From the IMG/VR virus record IMGVR_UViG_3300031999_000001, positions 1 to 64,000 of that record: a stretch of 64,000 bases of DNA; one strand, written 5' to 3'. A model generated the notes under the pieces. It ran no database searches. It worked only from the letters and a program-made list of their open reading frames with translations, and was not told where the DNA came from. The stretch is from a virus. Lineage: Duplodnaviria; Heunggongvirae; Uroviricota; Caudoviricetes. A program made the position numbers and the translations under genes. This document shows, one piece after another, positions 591-55,071 of this stretch (position 1 is the first letter of the stretch; every line of letters starts with the position of its first letter).

Positions 591-621
591 GTTATACGAT
601 AAAAATGAAAAAATGTTACAA
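591..621 (-). promoter_or_regulatory. conserved phage promoter-like motif, copy A (TTGTAA-N19-TATAAC)
   Basis: Matches the 9-copy motif with invariant TTTCGTAT; about 130 nt upstream of the ATG at 457. Confidence 0.4.
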
Positions 622-5888: not shown

Positions 5889-5919
5889 AGTATACGAAAA
5901 ATAAATTGAAAGGTTACAA
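5889..5919 (-). promoter_or_regulatory. conserved phage promoter-like motif, copy B (TTGTAA-N19-TATACT)
   Basis: Invariant TTTCGTAT core; 23 nt upstream of the ATG at 5866. Confidence 0.45.
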
Positions 5920-18293: not shown

Positions 18294-18408
18294 GGTCGGA
18301 GCAAGGTTCGAACTTGCATGATGATATTAACTCTACAACGGGCGTATCTCTTCGTAGTCACGTAATCATCTTATGTAGGTAAGCGACTGCCAATTTCGCC
18401 ATCCAACC
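18294..18408 (-). ncRNA. tRNA-like element with non-canonical length (~115 nt) inside a 510 bp ORF-poor, GC-enriched locus (18139..18648)
   Basis: Minus strand reads GGTTGGA-T-G-GCGA-AATTGGCAG-TCGC ... GCAAG-TTCGAAC-CTTGC-TCCGACC-A. This gives a 7-bp acceptor stem (one G-U), U8, a D-stem with A14/G18G19/A21, and a canonical T-arm (G53, T54-T55-C56-G57-A58, C61). An extra ~40 nt hairpin (GATGATTA ... TAATATCATC) replaces a normal anticodon arm. No CCA is encoded. Confidence 0.3.
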
Positions 18409-18648
18409 ATCAAAAAATCTTTCTGCCCGTTTCCACACGGAATACCAGAGTTGCCCTCTATTATGTACTTCGGTCTGCCCTTACCAGACTGCTTCACTTG
18501 GCGAAGGGTATTTTACGGCAAACAACGCCCCTTGGAATAGAACTGTAATCGAGCCACGCCTCACCTTTCCCTGTGACTCTGGTTTTTTAGGGTGTAATTA
18601 CTGTTTGCTTTCAGCAGAAAGACTTTATTTTCAAAGAACTAATACTCC

Positions 18649-21300: not shown

Positions 21301-22935
21301 TTATAAATCTACTTTAAAACGTAATGCAACTGGAAAACGTGGTTTTTTGTTTTTTCTTGTATAACCTTGATACTGAACTGTTACTATTCTACCAATAACT
21401 AATGATTTGTCATCAGCATATAATTTAAGGTCATCCATTTTACCTTTGAGTTTACAATCAAATGTAATACCTGCTGGTAACTGTTGGTCTTCTTTGGTTC
21501 TTTCACAAATGAACACAGCTTTACCTGCCATGATACCTTTTGTACCTATCTTTATGTCAACAACACGAAATTCGTCATCATCAAATACTTTAACTTTTTG
21601 CAAATCGTATGAACGTTTGTTCACATACATTCCATCAAAGTTTCTGACAATTGCACCTTCATATCCCATTTCCATGAAGTCTTCATAGGCTTGCATCAGT
21701 TCCTCTTTACTGTTAACAATTCTTGATTCAACAATATGAATTGGAGAATTTTCAAATATTGAACGCCATCCTTCAAGTATTAAATACCTATCATAATTTG
21801 TAAGATTTGGAAGTGCTAAATCATAAACATGATATTGAATAACTTCATAACCATCTTGTGGTTCATCGGATGTTATTAAAGAAGTTAGTTTTTCGAATGT
21901 TATTTTTTCTTTTGGAAAATTAAGTACTGCATGATCACCAAATAATTCGAATGCTTTTTTATCATATGCTTTTGCAGCATCTTCAGCAGTATTAAAATAA
22001 CCAATATGAATTTTTTTATAATCATGAGTAATCTGAGCATGCCAATTTTCATCTCTTTTAAAAAACATAACACCTTTATATCCACTTGTATTGTTTATTC
22101 TTTTTTCAGAATTTGCACCATTATTTGATTCAGTAACTAATCTTAGATTACTTTTTCTTGCATCTAATTTATTTCTATTAATATGATCAACATCACTTTC
22201 TGGTAAATCTAAAACTAATTTATGTATATAATAAATTTTATGTTTATATGTTGTAATGGGATATCCATTTCCAGAGATTGTAATTTTATTACCTTGTAAT
22301 TTAGGTAAATCTTCTTCATCAAGAAAAACAATATTTCCATTAATATTAAATTCAAGAAATGGTATTTCTATTGATTTATTTTCTTGAATATTAATATCTG
22401 GATGCCATAATTCACCATCAAATCTATCAGCAAGTCCACAATTTTCTAAAGTATTGACAATATGAGGAATTGTTAAAATTTGTTTACGGGTTCTACTCCA
22501 CATAGTTACCTTTCCAATGTCATACTGACTGGTGCAACGGTGTCCATCCAATTTAGGTTGTGCTATTGCAGGAAATTTAATTTTATGCCCTTGTTCCCAA
22601 AATTTATGGGCAAGAATTGGAAATACACCACCTTCAATAATTGCATCGGTTGTACCTGCTTGTGCATCTTCAATACTCTGAACATAACCTTTTTTGAGTT
22701 GTTTATCCCATCTGGCTTTGGCTTGAAATATACCTTGTTCAATTGGAGTTGTTTCATTTGATCTACCAGTATTTTTACCTGATAAAACCTGTTCATGGCT
22801 GTATTGAATTTTACCCCCAACCTGACCAAATCTGTTGATTATGGTAGAGATGCCATTGATTTCATCAACACTGACTGTCCATTCTTGAATAGCACCAGTA
22901 CTGGTTTTCTTGTAAAGTTTTGGAAATTCTTTCAT
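21301..22935 (-). CDS. ATP-dependent DNA ligase carrying an in-frame HNH-AP2 endonuclease domain insertion
   Basis: Ligase motifs I KLDGHR, III FDGELW, IIIa YHVYDL, IV EGAIVR and V LQKVK, plus an OB-fold tail. About 180 aa (nt ~21858..22398) between motifs III and IIIa form an HNH (VDHINRNKLDARKSNLR) plus AP2 (SGYKGV...WHAQI...IGYFNTAEDAAKAYD) unit. Confidence 0.75.
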   Translation of the reverse strand: MKEFPKLYKKTSTGAIQEWTVSVDEINGISTIINRFGQVGGKIQYSHEQVLSGKNTGRSNETTPIEQGIFQAKARWDKQLKKGYVQSIEDAQAGTTDAIIEGGVFPILAHKFWEQGHKIKFPAIAQPKLDGHRCTSQYDIGKVTMWSRTRKQILTIPHIVNTLENCGLADRFDGELWHPDINIQENKSIEIPFLEFNINGNIVFLDEEDLPKLQGNKITISGNGYPITTYKHKIYYIHKLVLDLPESDVDHINRNKLDARKSNLRLVTESNNGANSEKRINNTSGYKGVMFFKRDENWHAQITHDYKKIHIGYFNTAEDAAKAYDKKAFELFGDHAVLNFPKEKITFEKLTSLITSDEPQDGYEVIQYHVYDLALPNLTNYDRYLILEGWRSIFENSPIHIVESRIVNSKEELMQAYEDFMEMGYEGAIVRNFDGMYVNKRSYDLQKVKVFDDDEFRVVDIKIGTKGIMAGKAVFICERTKEDQQLPAGITFDCKLKGKMDDLKLYADDKSLVIGRIVTVQYQGYTRKNKKPRFPVALRFKVDL

Positions 22936-22940
22936 GATTG

Positions 22941-22971
22941 TTTATACGAATTTTATTTAAAAATATTACAA
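22941..22971 (-). promoter_or_regulatory. conserved phage promoter-like motif, copy C (TTGTAA-N19-TATAAA)
   Basis: Invariant TTCGTATA; 6 nt upstream of the ligase ATG. Confidence 0.45.
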
Positions 22972-23800: not shown

Positions 23801-24958
23801 TCAACAATTCTCCAATGTATATTGAAAACCCTTATCTGAATAACATGGAAATTTAAAATTTATACCACAATATGAACCAATTTCATTAAAATTCACTGTA
23901 ATTAATTTACCTTTTTTTGTTACTGGAATTGCTTCGGGGTTAACTTGGTCAAGACAAGTAATTACCATACTTCTTCGTGAAATAGGATTATGATATTTAT
24001 CACATTCAACAGCATATTTCAATAAATCCAAATCAAGTACAGTTTTTCTGAAAGTTCCCTGATAACATTCATTTATATTGGTTTCATTGGGATTTTCTTT
24101 AATGTATGATGTATCAAGTCTTTCATTGGTCATATATCCATTACCATGACGTGTTTGATATGCACGTGTTACATAATAAGTTTTTAAATTTTTCTTATCA
24201 ATAAAAATTCCATATTTATTTATAATTTCTATTGCATTTTTTGATGTGGTATTACTTCTTGTAACATGTGGAAAAAAACCATAATTAGCATCTAACATAA
24301 TGCCCTGACCGCCTTCAAAAATCCAATCATTATCCATGAAACCATATAAATCATTAACAATATTATATCTGGTAACAAGGTCATCACATGCAATAATAAA
24401 ATCATCATAGAGTTTTTTGATATAGGCATGTTGATGTTCATTTTCTGGATTAAAATTTAACCTATAATATATATTCATTATAAGTCTGAGTTTTTCATTA
24501 CGGATTGCGGGATAAAATAAATCCCTGACATAAAGATGATAATGATCTTCATTTCTTTGAATTGTTGTTCCAAATCCTACACCAACACTACCATGATTAT
24601 TTTTTTCTTCAAGTTTATGATTTTGCAATATATCAAATGGTGTTGTAATCATTGCATTGGCATTAAGATATAATATTGGATTTACATCCATTTCTCTTAA
24701 CACCTTACCTTCTTTTAATATTCCAACAGGACTTACCGTACAATATTCTGACCAATAAGTTGGTACATTTAAAAGTGTACCTGAACCAAAATTAGAAAAT
24801 ACATGTCTTTTATCATTGGTAATAACAGTATGTCCAGATTGATGACCTGAATTATGTCTTATAACTAATGGATTTTTTGCTTTTGAACACAAATAATTAA
24901 CAAAAGAACCCTTGCCTTCATCACCATATAAACATCCGAGAATTACATATATATTCAT
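23801..24958 (-). CDS. adenylosuccinate synthetase family protein (PurA/PurZ homologue)
   Basis: N-terminal VILGCLYGDEGKGS (PurA P-loop GDEGKGK). RHNSGHQSGHTV ~ GGHNAGHT. GFGTTIQRNEDHY ~ GTTGRGIGPAYEDK. EGGQGIMLDANYGFFPHVTRSNTT ~ [24 protein letters not shown]. At 385 aa it is shorter than bacterial PurA (~430 aa). Confidence 0.8.
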   Translation of the reverse strand: MNIYVILGCLYGDEGKGSFVNYLCSKAKNPLVIRHNSGHQSGHTVITNDKRHVFSNFGSGTLLNVPTYWSEYCTVSPVGILKEGKVLREMDVNPILYLNANAMITTPFDILQNHKLEEKNNHGSVGVGFGTTIQRNEDHYHLYVRDLFYPAIRNEKLRLIMNIYYRLNFNPENEHQHAYIKKLYDDFIIACDDLVTRYNIVNDLYGFMDNDWIFEGGQGIMLDANYGFFPHVTRSNTTSKNAIEIINKYGIFIDKKNLKTYYVTRAYQTRHGNGYMTNERLDTSYIKENPNETNINECYQGTFRKTVLDLDLLKYAVECDKYHNPISRRSMVITCLDQVNPEAIPVTKKGKLITVNFNEIGSYCGINFKFPCYSDKGFQYTLENC

Positions 24959-24972: not shown

Positions 24973-25146
24973 TTAAATTTCACCACGTTCTTCTTGATTA
25001 ATTGCTTCTAATTTTCTTTTTATGCCAACATTTTTGTTTTGTTGAGTATAACTACCACCAAGTTTTTTACAAACAATTCCCCTACCTCTTTTTTTTGAAG
25101 ATACGGTTGGCTTTGTTCTTTTTCTATTTTTTCTTGATTTTGTCAT
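24973..25146 (-). CDS. small basic protein (57 aa, Lys/Arg-rich)
   Basis: MTKSRKNRKRTKPTVSSKKRGRG... Lies directly behind promoter copy D and ahead of the PurA-like gene. Confidence 0.3.
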   Translation of the reverse strand: MTKSRKNRKRTKPTVSSKKRGRGIVCKKLGGSYTQQNKNVGIKRKLEAINQEERGEI

Positions 25147-25168: not shown

Positions 25169-25199
25169 TTTATACGAAAAATAAATAAAAATGTTACAA
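25169..25199 (-). promoter_or_regulatory. conserved phage promoter-like motif, copy D (TTGTAA-N19-TATAAA)
   Basis: Invariant TTTCGTATA; immediately follows the 25204..25227 terminator hairpin on the minus strand. Confidence 0.45.
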
Positions 25200-25203
25200 A
25201 AAA

Positions 25204-25234
25204 AGGGACATATATTTTCACATGTCCCCTTTTT
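25204..25234 (-). terminator. rho-independent terminator (GGGACAT-N10-ATGTCCC plus T-tract)
   Basis: 7-bp GC-containing stem with a T-run on one side and an A-run on the other, downstream of the vWA gene. Confidence 0.5.
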
Positions 25235-25260
25235 TCAATTATAACACAATTATATTTTAA

Positions 25261-26392: not shown

Positions 26393-26423
26393 AACATACG
26401 AATAATTTTTCAATTTATTACAA
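26393..26423 (-). promoter_or_regulatory. conserved phage promoter-like motif, copy E (TTGTAA-N19-TATGTT, weaker)
   Basis: Same architecture and TTCGTAT core; upstream of 26353. Confidence 0.3.
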
Positions 26424-28282: not shown

Positions 28283-28313
28283 GATTTTCTTTTTCTATAA
28301 ATACTTAAGAAAA

Positions 28314-29130: not shown

Positions 29131-29161
29131 TTTATACGAATTATATTATAAAAGGTTACAT
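29131..29161 (-). promoter_or_regulatory. conserved phage promoter-like motif, copy F (ATGTAA-N19-TATAAA)
   Basis: TGTAAC and TTCGTATA cores conserved. Confidence 0.4.
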
Positions 29162-29692
29162 TTTTTCTTGTTTTATTATCTTAAGTTCGTACAAATATAG
29201 AAAAAGAAATTAATAAAACAATAAAAAGTATTTATCTTTTTAGGAATATTTGTAATAAGATCAAAAATAATTCGTATTATTGTAAAAATTATAAATATTC
29301 AGATTTATAAAAATTATCTTATATTTAATTAATTTTAAAATGAATGAATCATGGTGGTTTTTAATTGGAATTGCATCATTTATAATAATTGCGTTTACTT
29401 TATTAAAATATGGACTTTTTACTCAATCTAAAAGAAAAAAGAAATTGTAATTAGTATGCAGAGTATGTTGCTAAACAATTAAATAAGAAAACTGTATGGG
29501 TAGAATAAATGATGATTATGGTCCTGATTTAAAAAAGGAAGATATTAATATATATTTTAATATACATATTAATATTGAGATGAGTAAAGAAAATGTGTTA
29601 AATAAAAATGAACCTGACAATATATGTATAATATAATACATATTTCTTGCATTTTCAGATAATATGGTTTATATTAGCACAAATTTTAAATT

Positions 29693-30262
29693 ATGAAAAA
29701 CTTAGGACATTTAATGCTTGATCTTGAAACGATGGGCAAGCGAGCAGGATGTGCAATTGTATCAATTGGTGCAATCGAATTCGATTTGGAAACTGGTGAA
29801 ATGGGCAGAAAATTTTATGAACCTGTCGATCTTCAGTCTTGTTTAAATGTTGGTCTTTTTGTAGAAGCCAGTACAATTTATTGGTGGATGATGCAAAACG
29901 AAGAAGCAAGAAAAGAACTTTGTAAACCTGCCGTTAGTATTCAAAATGTTTTAGTGGCATTTACTTCATTTTTACATTGTCTTGGTGATTTTCAGCTTTG
30001 GGGAAATGGTGCAAGTTTTGATATGTCAATTCTTGAAGCAGCGTATTTTGCTATTGGTCTGGGAGAAATATTACCTTGGAAATTCAGAAATGAAAGAGAT
30101 GTTCGTACTTTAGTTTCTTTTGCTCCCGAAATCAAAGACAATTATCGTAAAATGGGAATAACGCATTGCGCTATTGATGATTGTAAACACCAAATTGAAT
30201 ATTGTGTTGCTATTTGGCAAAAATTAAAAAGTAATCATCTTACATCGCTTTCATTAAAATAA
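29693..30262 (+). CDS. DEDDh 3'-5' exonuclease (oligoribonuclease/ExoX-like)
   Basis: Exo I LMLDLETMG, Exo II WGNGASFDMSIL, Exo III HCAIDDCKHQ. The N-terminus resembles Orn (LIWIDLEMTGL). Confidence 0.6.
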   Translation: MKNLGHLMLDLETMGKRAGCAIVSIGAIEFDLETGEMGRKFYEPVDLQSCLNVGLFVEASTIYWWMMQNEEARKELCKPAVSIQNVLVAFTSFLHCLGDFQLWGNGASFDMSILEAAYFAIGLGEILPWKFRNERDVRTLVSFAPEIKDNYRKMGITHCAIDDCKHQIEYCVAIWQKLKSNHLTSLSLK

Positions 30263-30281
30263 ATTTTATAATAAGCATTAT

Positions 30282-30656
30282 ATGATAAAATGGAAAGAAG
30301 AATTTAAAAAATATCTTGCAAAAAAATTTAATGAAAAAATGGGGTATGAGATTAACCCCCAAAATATACATTCTATTGAAATAAATACTGAAATTAAAAT
30401 TGATTTATTGTCCGTTGAAGATTTGGCATTTACTTATGCTTTTGCAATAATGGACGAAAATTTTGAGCAGGCAAAGTTTATCAATGATGAATTTACCAAA
30501 AGAAATTGTGAGATTAAAATTAATATTGACGAAAAAAATCATTGTGGTACAATTGATGTTTATCAACTACCTGAAATTAGTTGTGCGTTATTGTCAATAT
30601 CTTTGAAAGTTTTACCAGATGGTATGATGATTGATTTTGAAAAACAAAATTTATAA
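30282..30656 (+). CDS. hypothetical protein
   Basis: ORF only. Confidence 0.4.
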   Translation: MIKWKEEFKKYLAKKFNEKMGYEINPQNIHSIEINTEIKIDLLSVEDLAFTYAFAIMDENFEQAKFINDEFTKRNCEIKINIDEKNHCGTIDVYQLPEISCALLSISLKVLPDGMMIDFEKQNL

Positions 30657-30662
30657 AATAAT

Positions 30663-31013
30663 ATGGAAAATTTAAAAACTGAAAAATTTAAAGAAAAAAT
30701 ATTTAATTTCATTGATAATACTGAATGGAATTTTATTGGAAATAAGCCTGTAATAATTGATTTTTATACCGATTGGTGTAGTCCATGTAAAAGAGTTGCT
30801 CCAATTCTTGAAGAACTCAGCACTGAATATTTAAGCATTGATTTTTATAAAGTAAATGCTGAAAATGAAAATGAATTGGCTACATTTTTTCATATTAAAA
30901 GTGTTCCTTCAATACTTTTTATACCATTAACAGGAACACCACAAATGGTAGTGGGTGGTGTTCCAAAAGGAATTTTAAAAGAAAAAATTAAAAATATTTT
31001 CAATATTGATTAA
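30663..31013 (+). CDS. trx: thioredoxin
   Basis: FYTDWCSPCKRVAP (WCxPC active site) in a ~115 aa protein. Confidence 0.8.
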   Translation: MENLKTEKFKEKIFNFIDNTEWNFIGNKPVIIDFYTDWCSPCKRVAPILEELSTEYLSIDFYKVNAENENELATFFHIKSVPSILFIPLTGTPQMVVGGVPKGILKEKIKNIFNID

Positions 31014-31028
31014 TATTTTCTCATTTTT

Positions 31029-31059
31029 TTGTAACATTTTAATTTATTTTTCGTATAAT
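31029..31059 (+). promoter_or_regulatory. conserved phage promoter-like motif, copy G (TTGTAA-N19-TATAAT)
   Basis: TTTCGTATAAT; 19 nt upstream of the ATG at 31079. Confidence 0.5.
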
Positions 31060-31078
31060 ACTTTAAATAATTACAAAA

Positions 31079-31879
31079 ATGACAAAGAAAAAAATAGTGA
31101 TTGACCCGCAGAAACATGCTGAAATGCTTTTGGAAAGAGAATTCACTGAAATCAAAGAAAACATTGCTTTTGGTATATTACCATTAAATCCCACAAGATT
31201 TTTTAAGGTTGGTGAACAGGTACAATTTGGTGCACATCATGAAACCTATATTCGTGAAATCTTTGAAAATGGATTATATTATAAAATTGAATCAATCGGT
31301 GTTCAACGTGAAAGAGATAAGCCACCTGTAAATGAATTTTATGTACTTGGATGGCATGATATATTTCCTATTGGTTGTTCTGGTCAAACTAAATTTGCAA
31401 AAAAAGAAGAACATTTTCTCAGCCTTTCAAATACTTCACTGGAGTCTTTATTATTTAAGGTGTATGGTGCTGGTGTCGATTTTGATGTTGATTATCAGCG
31501 TGATCATGTATGGACACTTGCAGATAAAATTGCCCTTATTGATAGTATTTTCAATAATATTGATATTGGTAAATTTGTTTTTGTTCAACGTAATATGGGT
31601 TATAATGGTAAACTTTATGAAGTTATTGATGGCAAACAAAGACTTACTGCCATTTATGAATTTTATGAAGATAGATTTCAATATAATGGTTTTTATTATT
31701 CACAATTGTCATTTGAAGATAAAAATAAATTTAAAAATCATGGAATTACTTACGGATATTTGGAAAATCCAAATAAAAGAAGTATATTTGAAACCTTTAT
31801 TAAACTTAATACTTGTGGAAAGCCAATGGCATTGAAACATATTGATAAAGTAAAAAAATTATTAGATGAACTTGGATAA
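31079..31879 (+). CDS. DUF262 (ParB-like / GmrSD N-terminal) domain protein
   Basis: YQRDHVW ... IDGKQRLTAI matches the DUF262 DGQQR motif; standalone, with no DUF1524/HNH partner. Confidence 0.55.
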   Translation: MTKKKIVIDPQKHAEMLLEREFTEIKENIAFGILPLNPTRFFKVGEQVQFGAHHETYIREIFENGLYYKIESIGVQRERDKPPVNEFYVLGWHDIFPIGCSGQTKFAKKEEHFLSLSNTSLESLLFKVYGAGVDFDVDYQRDHVWTLADKIALIDSIFNNIDIGKFVFVQRNMGYNGKLYEVIDGKQRLTAIYEFYEDRFQYNGFYYSQLSFEDKNKFKNHGITYGYLENPNKRSIFETFIKLNTCGKPMALKHIDKVKKLLDELG

Positions 31880-32261
31880 ACCCATAATTATACTTGATTT
31901 AGATGGAGTTATGTGCACCACACGTCAATATTATACCAATAAGAAAAAATGGCATCCAATATATGATTGTTATCGTTTTGATGAAAAATGTGTTAAGGTA
32001 CTCAATATTATAATTGAAAAAACAAATCCTATTATTGTACTTTCAAGTGATTGGAAAGACCATTATACCATTAATATGTTGAATGGAATATTTGAATGGA
32101 ATAAGGTTAATGCTAAAGTTTCTGATGTCACATCATCTTCTTGGGGTGTTCAGTTCACAAGTTTGCAACAATTGGAAGAATGTCGTTCATATGAAATCAA
32201 TAAATATCTTATATGTTCCACCAAAGGAATATGCAACAATACCAGATTCGTTAATTCGTAA
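31866..32261 (+). CDS. HAD-superfamily phosphatase-like protein
   Basis: Motif I IIILDLDGVM near the N-terminus; small size. Confidence 0.4.
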   Translation: MNLDKPIIILDLDGVMCTTRQYYTNKKKWHPIYDCYRFDEKCVKVLNIIIEKTNPIIVLSSDWKDHYTINMLNGIFEWNKVNAKVSDVTSSSWGVQFTSLQQLEECRSYEINKYLICSTKGICNNTRFVNS

Positions 32262-32276
32262 ATTACCATTTTAATT

Positions 32277-32522
32277 ATGAAAACAACATTATTAAAAATT
32301 CTTTGGAAAAAAGAAATTATTCATTGGAAACGAATTGGACAGATGTTCAAAAAATTCAATAGTTGGATAAGTAAATTAACTTTTGGTTTGATTGTTGCTG
32401 TTTTTATTACAATATTTCATTATGCATTTGCAATAATGCATACACTATATGAAATATTTTTGTTTATCTTTGCAAAACAATCATTTCAAGCTAATTTACA
32501 AAAATTAATATTAAAAGTATGA
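32277..32522 (+). CDS. small membrane protein
   Basis: One to two hydrophobic helices. Confidence 0.3.
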   Translation: MKTTLLKILWKKEIIHWKRIGQMFKKFNSWISKLTFGLIVAVFITIFHYAFAIMHTLYEIFLFIFAKQSFQANLQKLILKV

Positions 32523-33037
32523 GTTTGTTTGTAACAGATGTAGAATCAGATGGACAGATAATTGGAAAGCATAGTATTGTGTGCTTTGGTGTGGTTAAAC
32601 TAACTCCTGAATTAGATACAACTTTTTATGGTCAAATAAAGCCAATTTCTGATGAATGGATACCAAGCGCACTTGAAGTAAGTGGTTTTAGTCGTGAAGA
32701 ACATTTGAAATTTGATGAACCATTTATTGTTATGGATAATTTTGCTAATTGGTTAAAAGAACATTCTGTTGGCAGACCAATATTAATATCCGATAATAAT
32801 GGATATGATGCTTCATGGATTAATTATTATTTTCATGTTTATCATCATGGCAATCCCTTCGGATGGAGTTCACGTAGAATCGGTGACTTGTATTGTGGTA
32901 TGATGAAAGATACATATGCAAGCTGGAAAAAATTAAGAATAACTAAGCATTCTCATCATCCGGTTGATGATGCAATGGGTAATGCCGAAGCATTATTAAA
33001 AATGAAAGAAATGGGTTTGAAAATTGATACAAAATAA
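32519..33037 (+). CDS. DEDD-family 3'-5' exonuclease-like protein
   Basis: FVTDVESDG (Exo I D-x-E) and HHPVDDAMGN (Exo III H-x4-D). Confidence 0.45.
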   Translation: MSLFVTDVESDGQIIGKHSIVCFGVVKLTPELDTTFYGQIKPISDEWIPSALEVSGFSREEHLKFDEPFIVMDNFANWLKEHSVGRPILISDNNGYDASWINYYFHVYHHGNPFGWSSRRIGDLYCGMMKDTYASWKKLRITKHSHHPVDDAMGNAEALLKMKEMGLKIDTK

Positions 33038-33043
33038 ATTAAA

Positions 33044-33343
33044 ATGTTTGATTTTTTAAAAAATATATTATTTTTGATTCCAATAATGATATATTATCTT
33101 ATAGAATCAATAATTCTTGCACTTTTTATTAATTTAGTTTGGAAACTTATTTTACAATCAAAATTTAATATTTATCTATCATATCTTGATTGGGTTGCAA
33201 TAATCTGGATTATTAAAGTAGTATTTTTTGATATTTTTAAGTTGCTTGGTAATTTTTTCAATGTGATTTATGAGAAAATAGAAGGAATTGAAAAAGACCG
33301 AATTAATAAACAAAATAATAGCACTGGATATAAGACAAATTAA
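33044..33343 (+). CDS. membrane protein
   Basis: Multiple hydrophobic helices. Confidence 0.35.
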   Translation: MFDFLKNILFLIPIMIYYLIESIILALFINLVWKLILQSKFNIYLSYLDWVAIIWIIKVVFFDIFKLLGNFFNVIYEKIEGIEKDRINKQNNSTGYKTN

Positions 33344-33345
33344 TT

Positions 33346-33567
33346 ATGAAATACATAAAAAAAACACCAAGAATAATCGTTAAATTTATTAATGCTGATA
33401 CTGAGGAAATTCTTTTTGAAATAAAAGATAAAACTTGGATGGATGTTGGACAAAATTTCAGTGATTTTAATGTAAGTTCAATACTCACACAAGAACTAAA
33501 AAACAAATCAGTACCAAAAAATATTCTTATAATAGCAGTGGGGGAATTTAAATTAGTTAATTCTTGA
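33346..33567 (+). CDS. hypothetical protein
   Basis: ORF only. Confidence 0.25.
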   Translation: MKYIKKTPRIIVKFINADTEEILFEIKDKTWMDVGQNFSDFNVSSILTQELKNKSVPKNILIIAVGEFKLVNS

Positions 33568-33711
33568 CTTTTTAAATGCTGATTTATTGCAACAATACCA
33601 GACCCAACTAATACAAGCAATTAATTTATTATTTATAAAGGATATGTACACATTATACCCACCCGTACACAAATTGTGTACAACATAAATATTTAAAATA
33701 TATGCTTTTTT

Positions 33712-33742
33712 TTGTAACATTTTTAAATTATTTTCGTATAAT
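33712..33742 (+). promoter_or_regulatory. conserved phage promoter-like motif, copy H (TTGTAA-N19-TATAAT)
   Basis: TTTTCGTATAAT; 26 nt upstream of the ATG at 33769. Confidence 0.5.
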
Positions 33743-33768
33743 TGATTGTAACATTAAATTTAAAGAAA

Positions 33769-34602
33769 ATGAAAAACTTAATTAATTTACTCGTATTTGC
33801 ACTACTAATAAGTGCTAATGTGTTTTGTCAGGGAGATACTTTTGATGACGAAACACCGTTTGCCAATGAAAAATATGCTAATTATCTCTCATTAGATAAA
33901 AGCACGATTCAATATGTTCTTCCATATTTGGATAAACATATTTATTGTTTTATTGCAAATGATCTTTTATATGTTCTTGCATATCGTATTGATGAAGATG
34001 AAAAAGATTGGAAAAGGGAATATAATTATAAAATAGTAAATGATGTTTCTTATAGAAAAAGAGAATGGATGCTTTATTATGTTGATAAAACAAACAATTT
34101 GATTGAAGCGTCAAATGTTGTTCAAACCGATTGTCGATTTGTTTCGGTTGTCAAAGATTATGGCACACATAAAAGTTATAGTGAGGGTAATTATGACTTA
34201 CTGATTCAAAAAGGATTAGGCGATGGTCAAATACGTATACTTAATAATGGTTGTGTGGTTATGTTGCTTTGTAATAGATATAGAAGTGTAGGTATTGATT
34301 ATAATGAAGAGTATAATTACAATGCTATTGCTATATTTGTGCCAAATGGTGATGGAACTTATATCTCAACACGTTTTGAACCACTAAACAAAAAACCAAG
34401 AGAATTATGTGCAAATGACACATTAATAATATCTGAATCTGAAAATAGAATTAAACTTGAATTCTGGAATAAAATGATTTGTGATGAAAATGAAAAACCT
34501 GATGGTTATTCTACATATAACTCAGATACTAATGGTAAAATAATTAAAATTCCTTTTAAAAGAGAATTTATTGCCACATTGAATTTTGATTTAATTCAAT
34601 AA
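33769..34602 (+). CDS. secreted protein / lipoprotein candidate
   Basis: Signal peptide MKNLINLLVFALLISANVFCQG. Start moved from the track's TTG at 33742 to the ATG at 33769. Confidence 0.45.
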   Translation: MKNLINLLVFALLISANVFCQGDTFDDETPFANEKYANYLSLDKSTIQYVLPYLDKHIYCFIANDLLYVLAYRIDEDEKDWKREYNYKIVNDVSYRKREWMLYYVDKTNNLIEASNVVQTDCRFVSVVKDYGTHKSYSEGNYDLLIQKGLGDGQIRILNNGCVVMLLCNRYRSVGIDYNEEYNYNAIAIFVPNGDGTYISTRFEPLNKKPRELCANDTLIISESENRIKLEFWNKMICDENEKPDGYSTYNSDTNGKIIKIPFKREFIATLNFDLIQ

Positions 34603-34604
34603 TA

Positions 34605-35054
34605 ATGATTAAGGTTGTTCCATTTATTCAAACAATAAATAGCGAGAGATTTAAAGAATTTCTCGCCAAACCTTTTACCATTGATATGTTATATCCCGTA
34701 TTTAACAATAAGTCAGTTGAAACCCTTTTTGAAGGATGGCGTGGAAAGGATATGAATAACTGGTACAGATTCACCAATGAAGAAAATTTTATTCTTGAAT
34801 TTTATTTAAATTATTATATTATAAAAAAAGAAGCAAAGACATTTAAAGCAAATGATGTTGTAAAATATCAAATGCCAATACCAAGAAATATTAATGATTT
34901 TATCAATGATATGTATAGATTTGGAATTCAACTTTATTGGACAAAATGGATTGATGAAAACTTTGAACCAAAAGATTATCTTGATAAAGATATGATTTTC
35001 AAATACTATAAAGACTTGTTATTTAAAATGGGCAAATTTAACGATTTGCAATAA
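34605..35054 (+). CDS. hypothetical protein
   Basis: ORF only. Confidence 0.4.
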   Translation: MIKVVPFIQTINSERFKEFLAKPFTIDMLYPVFNNKSVETLFEGWRGKDMNNWYRFTNEENFILEFYLNYYIIKKEAKTFKANDVVKYQMPIPRNINDFINDMYRFGIQLYWTKWIDENFEPKDYLDKDMIFKYYKDLLFKMGKFNDLQ

Positions 35055-35058
35055 TTAT

Positions 35059-35853
35059 TTGTATTTTATGAAAAATTTTATTAATTTTGACACTAATTTT
35101 AACCATATGAATAAGGAAAATGGAATTATTTGGGATAACCTCACATTTAAAACAATTAATTATTGTAAAAATTTTGATTTGGTTAATGATAATGAAAATA
35201 TCATCACTGAACATTCGGGTACAATATCTGAAATAAGAATTGTAGAACATAAACCACCAATCACTGCTGGTGAATTTGGTCTTTCGGTCTGGAATATTGA
35301 ATTAGGTAAAAAATTTAACGTTGATTTTAATAAATTGATTGAAGAACATAAATTTGAGCTTACGTATAGTGAATTGATGAAAATTATTCAGAATAAAAAT
35401 ATTAATATTGAAAATTTTGATAAGCTAATATTGATCAATAATCTTATATTACATCCAAATTATCGAAAACATGGTGTAACTGAAGAATTTGTTGAATATC
35501 TGCACAGGGTTTTCCATACTAAAAATAATGCAATTATTGCTCTTGTTATGCCATTTCAAGACAATCCTGTTGATGCAGATTTTTATTTTAATCAACAGAC
35601 AGTTGAAGTTCGACATTCAATTCAAAAAACACATGAATTTGAAACAATTCCTGCACATATTTATTATTCATTAAGTGAATTTCAAAAAAGAACTGATAAA
35701 GAATTAAATGAATATAAATTATTTTCAGTTGCCACTAAATGTGGGTTTACCAGACTTGATAATTCATATTTGTTTATATATTCACCAGAAAAAATATTCC
35801 AAAGAATGTTGAAAAAAAGAGAAGAAATAAAAAAAGTTAATGTAACAGTATAA
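35059..35853 (+). CDS. hypothetical protein
   Basis: ORF only. Confidence 0.4.
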   Translation: MYFMKNFINFDTNFNHMNKENGIIWDNLTFKTINYCKNFDLVNDNENIITEHSGTISEIRIVEHKPPITAGEFGLSVWNIELGKKFNVDFNKLIEEHKFELTYSELMKIIQNKNINIENFDKLILINNLILHPNYRKHGVTEEFVEYLHRVFHTKNNAIIALVMPFQDNPVDADFYFNQQTVEVRHSIQKTHEFETIPAHIYYSLSEFQKRTDKELNEYKLFSVATKCGFTRLDNSYLFIYSPEKIFQRMLKKREEIKKVNVTV

Positions 35854-35856
35854 TAT

Positions 35857-36096
35857 ATGGGAAAAAAGAAAATTAAACTCGATGAATTTCATTATCATGA
35901 AGCATTGGATAGATCATATATCATTGCAGACATGATTGAAAATGTACTTATTACACATCCAGTTATTGAAAATAACAAAGATTTGAAAATAAAAGTAGAA
36001 AAAGCACAAGACATTATTTGTGAGGTTTATCAGATGATTGGCGGTTTGGTTGTAAAAGAATTTCCCAAACAATCAGAAATAATAAAAAATGAATAA
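35857..36096 (+). CDS. hypothetical protein
   Basis: ORF only. Confidence 0.3.
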   Translation: MGKKKIKLDEFHYHEALDRSYIIADMIENVLITHPVIENNKDLKIKVEKAQDIICEVYQMIGGLVVKEFPKQSEIIKNE

Positions 36097-36360
36097 CATA
36101 TTTGACTTTTTAGTATTTATATTGAATAAATAATGAATAATATTTTTAAAATATTAATAAATTTTCGACAAAAAATACCTTCATGGAAGGTTAATATAAT
36201 TAAAAATTTGGACATACCAAATTTTCTAATACCCAGAAAAACAAATATTTCTGGGCATTTTTGTTTAAATACCGTATTAATTTTCGGTAAAATTTTGAAA
36301 ATTAATTATTGTAATTCATTGATTTTCAATTAAAAATAACATTTATTAACTTTAATAATT

Positions 36361-37047
36361 ATGAAAAAATTAATTTTATTATTTTTAATCTTTTTAGTTA
36401 TTTCATTTGTTTTAAACAATACTTTCATTAGTAATGCAAGAAATAATATTGATAATGACATGAGTAATATCTTGGTAAAAGAAAGATTAATTAAGTTGGA
36501 AAAAGAAGTATATTTAAAAGATTTAATACAATATATTGAATTTGAATCTGAAATAATTATTCCAGAATATTTTGATGTTAAGTATGTTGAATATACCCAT
36601 AGTCTTGCAGATACTCTTAAAATACCAATCAGAACTGCTTTCAGATTAATATATAAAGAATCTTGTTTCAGAGATACGGTTGTATCAGGAAAGGGTGCAA
36701 AGGGTCTTATGCAATTAATGCCTAATACACGTAAAATGTATTACGAACTTTTATGTGTTGATACATTAAATCTTGATAAAAATCAAGAAGATATTTATAT
36801 TGGTATGAATTATTTAAAAAATTTATATGATTTTTGGATTTCGAGAGGTAATTCCCAAAAATATTCGTGGAAATTATCGCTTGCATCATATAATGCAGGT
36901 GAAGGTACTGTACTTGATAATAATGGTATTCCGCCAATTAAAGAAACTACTGATTTCATTGCTTTTATATTAAAAACACATTCAAATCCTGAATTTTTTG
37001 CAAATTATGTTAAAAAATATGAAAACGAAATTAAAGACGGCACATGA
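36361..37047 (+). CDS. lytic transglycosylase (SLT domain) with signal peptide
   Basis: GAKGLMQLMPNT (catalytic Glu-Ser context, GLMQ-MP) and ASYNAGEG. Confidence 0.7.
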   Translation: MKKLILLFLIFLVISFVLNNTFISNARNNIDNDMSNILVKERLIKLEKEVYLKDLIQYIEFESEIIIPEYFDVKYVEYTHSLADTLKIPIRTAFRLIYKESCFRDTVVSGKGAKGLMQLMPNTRKMYYELLCVDTLNLDKNQEDIYIGMNYLKNLYDFWISRGNSQKYSWKLSLASYNAGEGTVLDNNGIPPIKETTDFIAFILKTHSNPEFFANYVKKYENEIKDGT

Positions 37048-44650: not shown

Positions 44651-44715
44651 ATTATCTTTATTCGTTGTTTATAAATACTTAGTCGACACAAAAAATTGAT
44701 AATAAATAAAAGGCA

Positions 44716-45537: not shown

Positions 45538-45577
45538 GGTTATAATTTTTTATAATAAATACTTATGGGTAAAAAAA

Positions 45578-46130: not shown

Positions 46131-46154
46131 ATTTTATTATTTAATATAAATACT

Positions 46155-47430: not shown

Positions 47431-48582
47431 TTATTTCATATTTTCAAGTATACGAAATGCATCATCAAAATTTTCAATAATATTGATTGCTTCATTATAT
47501 GGTATTGCAATATGTCTTCTTTTTCCATTGGTTGTAAATATACCTATTCTATCCATATTTTCCAAGAAATTTTCAACCACTTTATTTGAATTTATAATAT
47601 TTGTGTTGTCGGCGACATGTTTTTTTAATTCTAAACCACTCATTACCTTATCGCCAATTATTGCTTTACCATTACCATACACAAATGTAAGTAATGCACG
47701 ATATCTATCTTTTTTTTGATAAATTTTTTCAAATTTTTGCTGATTTATTTCAAATAATGTATATTCAAAATATTCTCTGAAATATATACCACCAATAATA
47801 ATTAATTCATTGAATATAACAATAATAATAAATAAAAATATATTTTTAGTATCTTCCGTTTTATTACTTAATCTTGCCGAATTTAAACGATTATTAAGTT
47901 CAGAAACTCTGGCATTTAATTCAGTATCAATTTTAGTTATTTCAACTTGATTATCCCCAATAATTTTTGTATTTTTATCAATGCTTGTTTGATATTCTCT
48001 TCTTGCTGTTATATAATTTAATGGTGTTTCTGCTAATTTCTGACGTAAATCATTTGTCACCATTCTTAATGTTTCATTATCATTAAGATATATCGTTTTT
48101 TTATTTTCATATGCTAATGATATACTATCTGTTTGCACTAAAATTTGCATTTCGGTAACTGTGTTCTTAAATATACTTGTTGATGCCAGATTTTTTGAAC
48201 CAGATATTGATAAATAAAAACTTAATATAATAATTGTCATTGCAGTAGTAAACCATCCCATTATTTTAGGATTTGGTTTTCTGTTATTTCTCATATAATC
48301 ACTGGAAAAATTTCTAATTAAATATCTTTTTGTTACTTCAAATATTGTTAAAAATATCAATGTTAATGAAACTGCAATTGCAGCACCCCAAAATCCAGAA
48401 ATAAAATGTAATGTAATTGTTTTTAATAATGCTGGATATACTAAAAAATATGCAAAAAATATCGCACTTGCATTACCAATAAATGAAAATCTAAACAACC
48501 ATTTATCTAACCCATTATTATTACCTTCAAAATCTTTGGTGTTGATTTTCTTTTTTAATTCATCATATTTTTTTAAATCCAT
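47431..48582 (-). CDS. membrane protein with coiled-coil
   Basis: Several TM helices. Confidence 0.4.
   Translation of the reverse strand: MDLKKYDELKKKINTKDFEGNNNGLDKWLFRFSFIGNASAIFFAYFLVYPALLKTITLHFISGFWGAAIAVSLTLIFLTIFEVTKRYLIRNFSSDYMRNNRKPNPKIMGWFTTAMTIIILSFYLSISGSKNLASTSIFKNTVTEMQILVQTDSISLAYENKKTIYLNDNETLRMVTNDLRQKLAETPLNYITARREYQTSIDKNTKIIGDNQVEITKIDTELNARVSELNNRLNSARLSNKTEDTKNIFLFIIIVIFNELIIIGGIYFREYFEYTLFEINQQKFEKIYQKKDRYRALLTFVYGNGKAIIGDKVMSGLELKKHVADNTNIINSNKVVENFLENMDRIGIFTTNGKRRHIAIPYNEAINIIENFDDAFRILENMK
47447..47477 (-). promoter_or_regulatory. conserved phage promoter-like motif, copy I (TTGAAA-N19-TATACT)
   Basis: Invariant TTTCGTATA; embedded in the C-terminal codons of 47431..48582. 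Confidence 0.4.
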
Positions 48583-48617
48583 TTTTTAGTTTTTTTATAA
48601 ATACTAAAAAATATGAT

Positions 48618-51947: not shown

Positions 51948-52049
51948 TATATTGAAATTTTCACAAATATATTTATATCAACCCAATAATGCAAGGTTTT
52001 TTTAAATTCCCAATAAGTAACATATTGTAAAAGTCCCAAAAATAATAAA

Positions 52050-53343: not shown

Positions 53344-53373
53344 GCAATTAAATATTTTTTATAAATACTTAAT

Positions 53374-53997
53374 TTACTCACAAATGATTTTCGAATTATT
53401 CTTTTTTAATTTAGTTTTTATATAATTTACCCTATTGCTAATTGTATCACTTGAAAGATTAAATTCTTTTCCAATTTCACAATACTTATAACCTTGAACA
53501 TATTTCATATCCAATAATGTATAATCAACTGGTGATAATTGATTAGAAATATAATTAATTGAATTACAATTTTCAAAATCAACAACATTTGATAATGTAT
53601 AACTACAATTAGCAACAAGCGCAATGTTATTTGTTCTAATTATTTCATTATAATTATCGGACAAATCAATACAATCATTAGATGATATTAGCGAATTATC
53701 AAGAGATGTTAATGATATTGTATTACATCTCCATTTATCAATCATATAATTATTTGTAATACTGAAAACCCATGACTTAAATTTTGATTTTGTTTGATTA
53801 AATTCTTTCAAATTTAAAAAAATTTTAATCATTATTTCTGACACATCATCATCAAGGTCATAAATAATTGAATATTTGATTTTTATGAAATTTTTAACTA
53901 TTCTTTTATACTTTTCATATAGCGTTTTTTGTGCTATTTGATTTCCATCCAAAATATTTTGGATAAGAATTGTATCTTCCTGTTCTTTTATAATCAT
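53374..53997 (-). CDS. sigma-70 family (ECF-like) RNA polymerase sigma factor
   Basis: Region 2-like KSKFKSWVFSITNNYMIDKWR and a C-terminal HTH LLDMKYVQGYKYCEIGKEFNLSSDTISNRV. Start trimmed to the internal ATG; still overlaps the primase 3' end. Confidence 0.55.
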   Translation of the reverse strand: MIIKEQEDTILIQNILDGNQIAQKTLYEKYKRIVKNFIKIKYSIIYDLDDDVSEIMIKIFLNLKEFNQTKSKFKSWVFSITNNYMIDKWRCNTISLTSLDNSLISSNDCIDLSDNYNEIIRTNNIALVANCSYTLSNVVDFENCNSINYISNQLSPVDYTLLDMKYVQGYKYCEIGKEFNLSSDTISNRVNYIKTKLKKNNSKIICE

Positions 53998-54991: not shown

Positions 54992-55040
54992 TTTATTTTT
55001 TCTTTAGTCCATTTCATATTAACAAAAATATAAAAAAAAA

Positions 55041-55071
55041 TTTGTTCCAAAACAAATGATTTTGGAACAAA
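55041..55071 (-). terminator. rho-independent terminator (12-bp stem TTTGTTCCAAAA/TTTTGGAACAAA plus T-tract on minus strand)
   Basis: Long hairpin preceded by A8 on the plus strand. Confidence 0.5.

What the first reader, a model, noticed from the sequence alone, without database searches (positions are those of the whole stretch)
31029..31059. Nine copies of a 31-bp promoter-like motif TTG(T/A)AA-N19-TATnnT with invariant TTTCGTAT core, positioned 6-30 nt upstream of operon starts
All nine copies share identical architecture, a 19-nt spacer, and the block TTTCGTAT spanning the spacer/-10 junction. Seven sit 6-30 nt 5' of a start codon, in the orientation of the gene they precede, on both strands. 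Copies:
- A 591..621 (-)
- B 5889..5919 (-)
- C 22941..22971 (-)
- D 25169..25199 (-)
- E 26393..26423 (-)
- F 29131..29161 (-)
- G 31029..31059 (+)
- H 33712..33742 (+)
- I 47447..47477 (-)
The 19-nt spacer is outside the sigma-70 optimum (17 +/- 1), and the extended conserved core suggests a dedicated recognition factor. The window encodes an ECF-like sigma factor (53374..53997), which is a natural candidate. Alternatively this is the phage early/middle promoter class read by host RNAP. The motif does not resemble the Bacteroidetes TTTG/TAnnTTTG consensus. Copy D follows a terminator directly, and copy I lies inside the 3' codons of the upstream gene.
Basis: seen in the sequence. Interest (0 to 1): 0.6.

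Follow-up and report, generated by a model that had tools for sequence, protein, structure and literature searches.

The report
Phage ECF-sigma-type promoter class
The repeated motif is a real promoter class of a large uncultivated phage that probably infects Bacteroidota; it has the two-block shape read by ECF-type sigma factors and is most likely read by the sigma factor the phage itself encodes.

Summary
The invariant core is TTGTAAY-N15-TCGTAT, not TTTCGTAT. There are 9 sites with at most 1 mismatch against 0.39 expected by chance. Copy I is a weak outlier. All strong copies are intergenic, point the same way as the next gene, and lie only in 0.6-34 kb.

Re-parsed, the motif is a textbook ECF promoter: TGTAAC, a T-tract, then CGTAT 16 nt after AAC, like B. 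subtilis sigW/sigX/sigV promoters. The window's sigma gene (53374-53997) is an ECF-superfamily sigma, and its best solved relative is SigW.

The same motif occurs in many IMG/VR phage contigs (66 stretches for a 21-base version) but in only 12 stretches of 596 Gb of bacterial genomes. Eight of 11 motif-bearing contigs of 100 kb or more also encode this sigma family. No copy lies within 10 kb of any sigma gene. Those genes sit behind a canonical Bacteroidota host promoter (TTG-N19-TATATTTG).

This suggests a cascade: host sigA makes the phage sigma, which then reads this class, driving non-structural genes. That the sigma reads the motif is inferred, not shown. A second clade-wide motif, AGTATTTAT, is a competing target.

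This is a new member of a known kind, of moderate interest.

The parts
594..621 (-). Class-1 promoter A: TTGTAACATTTTTTCATTTTTATCGTAT. The next ATG (583) opens a 35-aa ORF.
   Evidence: Exact match to TTGTAAY-N15-TCGTAT. Intergenic.
5892..5919 (-). Class-1 promoter B, 25 nt upstream of the ATG of gene 5582-5866, the first gene of a leftward gene string.
22944..22971 (-). Class-1 promoter C (TTGTAAT variant). The TAA stop codon of the upstream ATP-grasp gene lies inside the -35 block. The ATG of the DNA ligase gene (21301-22935) follows 8 nt after TCGTAT.
   Evidence: Orthologous ligase upstream regions in L014 and L028 keep the motif while the flanks differ.
25172..25199 (-). Class-1 promoter D, directly after a terminator. 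It drives gene 24973-25146, then the PurZ-like adenylosuccinate synthetase gene.
25198..25235 (-). Intrinsic terminator hairpin (GGGGACAT...ATGTCCC plus a T-run) abutting promoter D.
   Evidence: Fold energy -19.9 kcal/mol, z = -6.2.
26396..26423 (-). Class-1 promoter E (TTGTAAT variant, with the upstream gene's stop codon inside the -35 block). The downstream sequence TATGTTTG also fits the host -7 box.
29134..29161 (-). Class-1 promoter F (ATGTAAC, one mismatch). It heads the leftward gene string starting at 29122.
29250..29277 (+). It diverges from F (88 nt apart) and heads the rightward string (small ORFs, 3'-5' exoribonuclease-like gene, thioredoxin).
31029..31056 (+). Class-1 promoter G (the flagged copy), 22 nt upstream of the ATG of a gene encoding a GmrSD_N-domain protein (31079-31879).
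   Evidence: The motif is invariant in the alignment of upstream regions of related GmrSD_N genes from 3 other contigs, while the flanks diverge.
33712..33739 (+). Class-1 promoter H, upstream of gene 33769-34602.
47450..47477 (-). Copy I: doubtful member. It has TTGAAAA instead of TTGTAAC and lies inside the 3' end of gene 47431-48582.
   Evidence: It is a 2-mismatch hit, a level at which about 8 are expected by chance. The C of AAC is 96-100% conserved in 97 related sites.
53374..53997 (-). Phage ECF-like sigma factor gene (207 aa): sigma2 and sigma4 domains joined by an N/S/T-rich linker. Proposed reader of the class-1 promoters.
   Evidence: Pfam Sigma70_r2 6.9e-10 and Sigma70_ECF 2.7e-5. 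NCBIfam TIGR02937 scores 70 bits against a cut-off of 42.9. The best PDB hit is SigW, 5wuq. The family has more than 480 metagenomic homologues.
55015..55055 (-). Host-type (Bacteroidota sigA-like) promoter TTG-N22-TATTTTTG upstream of the primase-sigma operon.
   Evidence: In 25 of 47 non-redundant relatives the same position has TTG-N19/20-TATATTTG 3-8 nt before the ATG.

Best explanation
The motif is a phage-specific promoter class with ECF-sigma architecture. It has a -35 block tTGTAAC (the 'AAC' motif), a short T-tract immediately downstream, and a -10 block CGTAT(aa) starting exactly 16 nt after AAC.

The most likely mechanism has three steps:
1. Host RNA polymerase with the Bacteroidota primary sigma transcribes the primase-sigma operon from a canonical TTG-N19-TAnnTTTG promoter soon after infection.
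2. The 207-aa phage ECF-like sigma (53374-53997) replaces the host sigma on the core enzyme.
3. That holoenzyme starts transcription at the nine or ten TGTAAC-N16-CGTAT sites.

These sites head short operons of non-structural genes: DNA ligase, a PurZ-like enzyme, an ATP-grasp protein, a GmrSD_N-domain protein, an exoribonuclease-like protein, thioredoxin and many small ORFs. In relatives the downstream genes include rIIB and RNA ligase. This makes it a delayed-early or middle class. Several sites lie so close to the ATG (8-10 nt after TCGTAT) that the mRNAs would have almost no leader.

- **Shown:** the motif, its statistics, its placement, its clade-wide conservation, its co-occurrence with the sigma family, the ECF nature of the sigma, and the host-type promoter in front of the sigma operon.
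- **Inferred:** that this sigma, rather than another factor, reads the motif; the start sites; and the timing.
For: **Statistics and placement in the window**
- 9 sites with at most 1 mismatch against 0.39 expected.
- All are intergenic and co-oriented with the next gene, although only 7% of the window is intergenic.

**Placement in related sequences**
- Of 97 non-redundant sites in the window and related loci, 91 have a co-oriented ATG ORF of at least 30 aa within 400 nt. For 82 of the 97 it starts within 70 nt.
- Only 30% of random positions meet the 70-nt criterion.

**Architecture**
- AAC and CGT are essentially invariant and 16 nt apart, with T enriched after the -35.
- This equals the B. 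subtilis ECF pattern tGAAACnTTTt...CGTA (PMC5758882).

**The sigma**
- It belongs to the ECF superfamily.
- Its best solved relative is SigW, whose -10 is CGTA.
- It has Asn at the RpoE-N84 position, as SigW does. That residue goes with G at -12 (bioRxiv 10.1101/2020.06.23.168245).
- It is the only sigma-like ORF in the window.
- Sigma2 and sigma4 are highly conserved across the family, matching the invariant motif.

**Distribution**
- The 21-base version gives 66 stretches in IMG/VR but only 12 in 596 Gb of bacterial genomes. At least one of those 12 is the same phage contig filed under a bacterial bin.

**Co-occurrence with the sigma**
- 8 of 11 motif contigs of 100 kb or more carry the sigma family, which was found on only 65 contigs of the 2.9 million-contig collection.
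- Motif contigs without the sigma come from samples that hold a sigma-bearing contig.

**Cascade logic**
- There are 0 motif copies in 1.2 Mb around sigma genes.
- The sigma operon instead has a conserved canonical Bacteroidota promoter (consensus from PMC7366714).

**Footprints**
- The motif is invariant upstream of orthologous ligase genes and related GmrSD_N genes while the flanks diverge.
Against: - **No transcript data.** No start site has been mapped.
- **Co-occurrence is indirect.** It shows that motif and sigma belong to the same phage lineage. It does not show that one reads the other.
- **A competing target.** A second clade-wide motif, (t)aAGTATTTAT, gives 12 sites against 2.6 expected in the window and 300 in the sigma loci. 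It shares a GTAT core with the class-1 -10. It could be the sigma's true or additional target. From my own knowledge, the ECF-like sigma gp36 of phage phiEco32 reads a single -10-like element.
- **No autoregulation.** Most bacterial ECF sigmas have their own promoter upstream of their gene. Here none does.
- **Divergent -35 residues.** The residues at the RpoE R171/S172 positions, which read the -35, are Ser and Asn here, against Lys and Thr in SigW. The -35 preference therefore cannot be read off by homology.
- **Early-looking genes.** The downstream genes resemble what T4 expresses early, which would also fit a host-read early class.
- **Incomplete coverage.** Only 64 kb of a genome probably around 200 kb was seen, so a second sigma elsewhere cannot be excluded.
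Confidence: 0.65

Rival explanations
1. The motif is an early promoter class read by a host sigma, with no phage factor needed. The host sigma could be the primary sigA or one of the many host ECF sigmas.
For: - The downstream genes (ligases, rIIB, nuclease-like proteins, small ORFs) resemble early genes of other large phages.
- The motif contains TTG and TATAAT-like sequences. G and H can be read as GTAACA-N17-TATAAT.
- About a third of sites have TATAATTG, which is one mismatch from the host -7 box TAnnTTTG.
- A few copies lie in genuine bacterial contigs, for example a 954-kb Bacteroidales contig and a Rikenellaceae island.
- Bacteroidetes genomes carry about 22 ECF sigmas on average (PMC7826278).
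Against: - The invariant bases are AAC and CG, not the TTTG/TAnnTTTG of the Bacteroidota primary sigma (PMC7366714).
- These phages use that canonical host consensus elsewhere, including for the sigma operon, so host-type promoters look different in the same genomes.
- The 21-base pattern occurs only 12 times in 596 Gb of bacterial genomes, always once or twice per locus, against 66 stretches in the much smaller viral set.
- The motif is kept in phages of 23-39% GC from many habitats. That would require one host ECF of fixed specificity to be active in all hosts.
- Sigma-70-type sites are not enriched.
Confidence: 0.15
2. The motif is a phage promoter, but it is read by a different phage factor encoded outside the window (a second sigma or a sigma-remodelling protein). 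The sigma in the window reads the single-block motif AGTATTTAT instead.
For: - AGTATTTAT is enriched: 12 sites against 2.6 expected.
- It lies 13-20 nt upstream of start codons.
- It is abundant in the module that holds the sigma gene and throughout the clade.
- It precedes portal and terminase genes in relatives.
- From my own knowledge, phiEco32 gp36 is an ECF-like phage sigma that uses a -10-only promoter (TAATGTATA) also containing GTAT.
- Only part of the genome was seen.
Against: - The sigma has a well conserved sigma4 domain, which implies a -35 contact. Only class 1 has a conserved -35 block.
- Class 1 matches ECF geometry base for base.
- No second sigma-like ORF was found in the window or in the roughly 1.9 Mb of related loci then held.
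- The tight 13-20 nt coupling of AGTATTTAT to start codons could also mean an RNA-level or translation signal.
Confidence: 0.15
3. The motif is not a promoter but a binding site for a repressor or another DNA-binding protein that happens to sit between genes.
For: Intergenic repeats of about 30 nt can be operators. No transcript data exist.
Against: - The motif has no dyad symmetry.
- It has a strict orientation with the downstream gene on both strands.
- It has a fixed two-block geometry with a variable spacer sequence.
- It lies directly after terminators and 8-60 nt before start codons.
- Its -35/-10 blocks match a known sigma class.
Confidence: 0.05

Closest known systems
Bacillus subtilis ECF sigma promoters (sigW TGAAAC-N16-CGTA; sigX, -10 CGAC; sigV/sigW tGAAACnTTTt)
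   Same: - A two-block promoter with an AAC-containing -35.
- CGT(A) as the -10, 16 nt downstream of AAC.
- A homopolymeric T-tract just after the -35 (PMC5758882).
- The phage sigma's best solved relative is SigW, and its best NCBIfam neighbours are SigY, SigX, SigZ and SigW.
   Different: - It is encoded by a phage of a probable Bacteroidota host, not by a Firmicute.
- No autoregulatory copy lies upstream of the sigma gene, and no anti-sigma was recognised.
- The -10 extends to CGTATAA(T).
- The sigma has a long N/S/T-rich linker.
- The sigma scores far below every equivalog cut-off, so it is not an orthologue.
- The -35 TGTAAC for sigX is from my own knowledge.
Phage phiEco32 gp36 (from my own knowledge: Savalia et al. 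2008; Pavlova et al. 2012)
   Same: A lytic phage encodes an ECF-family sigma that redirects host core RNAP to a phage-specific promoter class for middle and late genes. Its promoter also contains GTAT.
   Different: - The phiEco32 promoters are a single -10-like element (TAATGTATA) with no -35 block. Here the motif is bipartite with canonical ECF spacing.
- The host phylum, phage size and sigma family are all different. phiEco32 did not appear among the protein hits in the phage collection.
Sigma cascades of large phages (T4 early/middle/late; SPO1 gp28 then gp33/34), from my own knowledge; SPO1 summary in PMC13401047 abstract
   Same: A host sigma transcribes early genes, including a phage sigma gene. 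The phage sigma then switches RNAP to a new promoter class. Several promoter classes coexist in one genome; three candidates are seen here.
   Different: - The sigma here is a standard sigma2+sigma4 ECF type, not a gp55-like or gp28-like divergent sigma.
- The class it most likely reads heads non-structural genes.
- The timing is untested.
Bacteroidota primary-sigma promoters (TTTG at -33, TAnnTTTG at -7)
   Same: They are present in the same genomes, and the TTG of the motif often follows a T (TTTG).
   Different: The -10 region of the motif is CGTATAA, not TAnnTTTG, and AAC is invariant. The canonical host form occurs separately, in front of the primase-sigma operon.

Membership tests
ECF-sigma-dependent promoter | -35 element containing the conserved AAC motif | tested here: met
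   A, A and C are 100%, 100% and 96% conserved in 96 non-redundant sites. In the window 6 sites have AAC and 3 have AAT. The definition is from PMC5758882.
ECF-sigma-dependent promoter | Group-specific -10 element, commonly CGT-type | tested here: met
   TCGTAT is invariant in all 9 strong window sites. Its invariance in related loci is by ascertainment. A follows in 93% of sites. CGTA is the sigW-type -10.
ECF-sigma-dependent promoter | Short, fixed spacer (ranges of 14-17 and 16-18 bp are reported) | tested here: met
   The spacing is exactly 16 nt between AAC and CGT in every window site.
ECF-sigma-dependent promoter | -35-proximal T-tract (frequent, not universal) | tested here: met
   T is 81-89% at the four positions after TTGTAACa in all sites. 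It is 47-69% in 145 sites not selected for it, against about 36% background.
ECF-sigma-dependent promoter | A cognate sigma with sigma2 and sigma4 but no sigma3 is encoded by the same genome | tested here: met
   Pfam r2 plus r4/ECF with no r3. TIGR02937 scores above its cut-off. The sigma co-occurs with the motif on 8 of 11 large contigs.
ECF-sigma-dependent promoter | Transcription from the site depends on that sigma | not testable with these tools
   This needs in vitro transcription or infection transcriptomics.
ECF-sigma-dependent promoter | Autoregulatory copy upstream of the sigma gene (typical of bacterial ECFs, not defining) | tested here: not met
   There are 0 copies within 10 kb of 65 sigma genes, 1.2 Mb in all. 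A host-type promoter is there instead.
Sigma-70 type housekeeping promoter (TTGACA-N17-TATAAT) | Hexamers matching the consensus at 17 +/- 1 nt | tested here: not met
   - TTGTAA to TATAAT is 19 nt.
- The alternative reading GTAACA-N17-TATAAT lacks the TTG.
- The conserved C and CG are unexplained by this model.
- Sigma-70-like sites are not enriched (138 found against 145 expected).
Bacteroidota sigA promoter | TAnnTTTG at -7 with TTTG near -33 | tested here: not met
   Only copy E carries TAnnTTTG after the motif. The canonical form is found elsewhere in the same phages. The consensus is from PMC7366714.
Phage-encoded sigma with a dedicated promoter class (phiEco32 gp36-like systems) | A phage gene for an ECF-like sigma plus a phage-restricted promoter motif | tested here: met
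   Functional dependence was not tested.

The most novel reading that the evidence does not exclude
A large, uncultivated clade of Bacteroidota jumbo phages may run a three-tier transcription programme built around one ECF-type sigma.
1. A canonical host promoter makes the sigma.
2. The sigma reads bipartite TGTAAC-N16-CGTAT promoters.
3. Through the shared GTAT core, the same sigma also reads the AGTATTTAT class, which lacks a -35 block and precedes replication, portal and terminase genes.

In addition, the isolated motif copies in bacterial chromosomes could be host or satellite promoters that sense the incoming phage sigma. One example is two tandem copies next to an integrase fragment and an Eco57I-type enzyme in a Rikenellaceae contig.
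Probability: 0.15. Interest if true: 0.7.

Novelty: new member of a known kind. Interest (0 to 1): 0.5.

Why it matters
- **A gap in ECF classification.** Phage ECF sigmas were explicitly left out of the large ECF classification (PMC7826278), so few cognate promoters are known for them.
- **A testable pair.** Here a precise promoter consensus can be paired with a sigma family of more than 480 metagenomic members, found on phage contigs up to about 365 kb.
- **Use in annotation.** It helps annotate operons and temporal classes in uncultivated Bacteroidota jumbo phages.
- **Host assignment.** The conserved TTG-N19-TATATTTG promoter gives a host-phylum clue.
- **Synthetic biology.** It offers a compact, probably orthogonal sigma/promoter pair for Bacteroidota.
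- **Limits.** It is not a new principle. Phage sigma cascades and ECF promoter geometry are both well known.

Tried and rejected
It gives only 4 hits, and TTTCGTAT alone is not significant. I replaced it with TTGTAAY-N15-TCGTAT.
- **Nucleotide search of the window.** A search against the GenBank phage collection found only a 67.7%-identity patch to a 735-kb uncultured phage. Protein hits were to that phage and to Tenacibaculum phages. No annotated close relative exists.
- **Sigma in cultured phages.** Only weak hits (23-28% identity) to crAss-like and huge uncultured phages. No experimentally studied homologue was found.
- **Rfam and tRNA scans of the window.** Nothing found.
- **Sigma-70-type scan.** No enrichment.
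- **Search for a second sigma-like ORF.** A search of the window and all loci held at the time found none.
- **Outgroup test.** I tried to use distant sigma relatives (L130-L132, about 30% identity) to see whether the motif changes with the sigma. Only 20 kb around each sigma is available, and that zone never carries the motif.
- **Literature searches.** Searches for the motif string found nothing relevant.
- **The GC-rich 330-nt gap at 18320-18648.** There is no fold signal (z = 0.31) and no Rfam hit.

Full report
**1. What is in the sequence**

The window has 28% GC and three strand blocks: genes on the minus strand in 1-29122, on the plus strand in 29496-37047, and on the minus strand in 37469-63883.

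The nine listed sequences are present at the stated coordinates, but the stated consensus is too strict in one place and too loose in another.
- TTGWAA-N14-TTTCGTATNNT matches only B, G, H and I.
- TTTCGTAT is not invariant and is not enriched on its own: 6 found against 2.9 expected.
- The invariant blocks are TTGTAAY and TCGTAT, exactly 15 nt apart. There are eight exact sites and one with a single mismatch (F), against 0.39 expected.
It lies 88 nt from F on the opposite strand, at the point where leftward and rightward genes diverge.
- Copy I has TTGAAAA. It is a 2-mismatch hit, a level at which about eight are expected by chance, and it lies inside a gene. I treat it as doubtful.

Placement of the nine strong sites:
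- All nine are intergenic or overlap only the upstream stop codon, and all are co-oriented with the next gene. Only 7.0% of the window is intergenic.
- In C and E the TAA stop of the upstream gene is the TAA inside TTGTAAT.
- D directly follows a strong terminator hairpin.
- All strong sites lie in 0.6-34 kb, and none in 34-64 kb.

**2. Re-reading the motif**

The bases that carry the information are the C of AAC and the CG of CGTAT, in a genome with 14% C and 14% G. Counting from these gives TGTAAC-N16-CGTAT, with a run of T immediately after the -35 block.

This is the architecture described for B. subtilis ECF sigma promoters (PMC5758882):
- an AAC motif at -35;
- CGTA (sigW) or CGAC/CGTC at -10;
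- spacers of 14-17 bp;
- a -35-proximal T-tract (tGAAACnTTTt).

A sigma-70-type scan shows no enrichment in this region.

**3. The sigma factor**

- ORF 53374-53997 (207 aa, a length confirmed by a 100%-identical metagenomic protein) has Sigma70_r2 and r4/ECF domains and no region 3.
- It passes the NCBIfam sigma70-ECF superfamily cut-off. Its next-best models are SigY, SigX, SigZ and SigW, all far below their equivalog cut-offs.
- A profile of the family finds B. subtilis SigW as the best solved structure.
- The family has more than 480 members at 55-66% identity. All are metagenomic, on contigs up to about 365 kb.
- Sigma2 and sigma4 are strongly conserved and are separated by a variable N/S/T-rich linker.
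- The residue aligned with RpoE Asn84 is Asn, as in SigW. That position is reported to go with G at -12, which fits CGTA.
- The residues aligned with RpoE R171/S172, which read the -35, differ from SigW (Ser and Asn against Lys and Thr). The -35 preference cannot be inferred by homology.
- No other sigma-like ORF is in the window or in the related loci held at the time.

**4. Related sequences**

- **Abundance in phages.** A 21-base version of the motif (TTGTAACATTTT-N9-TTCGTATAA) gives 66 stretches in IMG/VR, many on contigs of 100-363 kb, with up to seven core sites per locus.
- **Rarity in bacteria.** The same 21-base pattern gives only 12 stretches in 596 Gb of bacterial and archaeal genomes. 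Most are in Bacteroidota-labelled MAGs. At least one is the same 362,763-nt phage contig filed under a bacterial bin.
- **Co-occurrence.** A search with the sigma alignment found the family on 65 viral contigs. Eight of the 11 motif-bearing contigs of 100 kb or more are among them. Several motif contigs without the sigma come from samples that hold a sigma-bearing contig.
- **Placement.** Of 97 non-redundant sites, 91 have a co-oriented ATG ORF of at least 30 aa within 400 nt. For 82 of the 97 it starts within 70 nt, with peaks at 8-10 and 14-30 nt. Only 30% of random positions meet the 70-nt criterion.
- **Footprints.** Upstream regions of orthologous DNA ligase genes and of related GmrSD_N-domain genes keep the motif exactly while the flanks diverge.
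- **Downstream genes.** These are DNA ligase, RNA ligases, rIIB-like, ParB-like, ATPase, HNH endonucleases and GmrSD_N proteins. No structural protein was seen.

**5. Where the sigma gene sits**

Not one motif copy occurs in the 1.2 Mb within 10 kb of the 65 sigma genes. This mirrors the window.

About 1 kb upstream of the sigma, at the start of the adjacent primase gene, 25 of 47 non-redundant relatives carry TTG-N19/20-TATATTTG, 3-8 nt before the ATG. It is often preceded by a hairpin and a T-run. The window has TTG-N22-TATTTTTG at 55015-55055.

This is the Bacteroidota primary-sigma consensus, TTTG at -33 and TAnnTTTG at -7 (PMC7366714). Together with the lack of Shine-Dalgarno sequences and the Bacteroidota MAG labels, it points to a Bacteroidota host. 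It also indicates that the sigma gene is transcribed by unmodified host RNAP.

**6. Model and rivals**

The best reading is a cascade: the host sigma makes the phage ECF sigma, which then reads the TGTAAC-N16-CGTAT class.

- **Main uncertainty: a second motif.** (t)aAGTATTTAT gives 12 sites against 2.6 expected in the window. It lies 13-20 nt upstream of start codons, mostly in the 37-64 kb module. There are 300 copies in the sigma loci. In relatives it precedes homing endonuclease, transposase, portal and terminase genes. It shares GTAT with the class-1 -10. It could be a later promoter class read by another factor, a second target of the same sigma, or an RNA-level signal.
- **Rival: a host sigma reads class 1.** This is disfavoured by the separate canonical host class in the same genomes and by the motif's rarity in bacterial genomes.
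- **Rival: an operator.** The strict orientation and two-block geometry argue against it.

**7. Novelty**

Phage sigma cascades and ECF promoter geometry are both established. Phage ECF sigmas are known (phiEco32 gp36, from my own knowledge) but were excluded from the ECF classification. I found no paper describing this motif or this sigma family.

I rate it as a new member of a known kind, of moderate interest. The finding is clade-wide, precise and directly testable.

Noticed in passing
window 28297-28305(-), 29227-29235(+), 36112-36120(+), 40908-40916(-), 44671-44679(-), 45555-45563(-), 46146-46154(-), 48597-48605(-), 53361-53369(-), 59039-59047(-), 61480-61488(-): A second enriched motif, (t)aAGTATTTAT, gives 12 sites against 2.6 expected. 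Eleven of the 12 lie in gene orientation, 11-33 nt upstream of start codons. It is conserved across the clade (300 copies in the 1.2 Mb around sigma genes) and shares a GTAT core with the class-1 -10. It could be another promoter class or a translation or RNA-level signal.
   Followed up: partly
window 55015-55055(-); L069-L132 about 1 kb upstream of the sigma gene: A canonical Bacteroidota-type promoter, TTG-N19/20-TATATTTG, lies 3-8 nt before the ATG of the primase gene that precedes the sigma gene. It is usually preceded by a hairpin and a T-run, and is conserved in 25 of 47 non-redundant relatives. This implies near-leaderless primase mRNA and a Bacteroidota host.
   Followed up: partly
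window 23801-24958(-): A short (385 aa) adenylosuccinate-synthetase homologue matches the phage family phrog_1211 (6.6e-50), which is PurZ-like. The phage may replace adenine by 2-aminoadenine in its DNA. If so, every A in the promoter motifs would be modified.
   Followed up: no
window 21301-22935(-): The ATP-dependent DNA ligase ORF carries an HNH/AP2 endonuclease segment at residues about 219-348, between ligase-matching parts. This is an inserted or fused homing-endonuclease domain.
   Followed up: no
window 18320-18648: A 330-nt stretch with no ORF is visibly more GC-rich than its surroundings. It has no Rfam match even at E = 1, and its folding energy is no better than shuffles (z = 0.31). 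It remains unexplained.
   Followed up: partly
L143 7032-7963 (contig CAYYMF010000009.1, labelled Chitinophagales, 30% GC): A class-1 motif sits 37 nt (from the end of TCGTAT) upstream of a 288-aa sigma with regions 1.2, 2, 3 and 4, the size and domain set of a Bacteroidota primary sigma. Either a phage-borne primary-like sigma or a host rpoD-like gene is under the ECF-type promoter.
   Followed up: partly
L135 1015 and 1173 (-) (Rikenellaceae MAG contig, 283 kb): Two tandem class-1 motifs lie upstream of a 176-aa ORF with no family match. It sits between a tyrosine-recombinase-like fragment (judged by eye from the translation) and an Eco57I/MmeI-type restriction-modification enzyme. This could be an island whose gene is switched on by the phage sigma.
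   Followed up: partly
window 22965-22971 and 26417-26423: In both TTGTAAT variants (C and E), the TAA inside the -35 block is the stop codon of the upstream gene. This is very compact gene packing.
   Followed up: yes
window 51964-51990(-) and 57178-57215(-): Two further host-type promoter candidates share the upstream string AAAAAACCTTG, followed 18-20 nt later by TAnnTTTG. They lie upstream of the SbcC-like gene and of gene 55634-57139.
   Followed up: no
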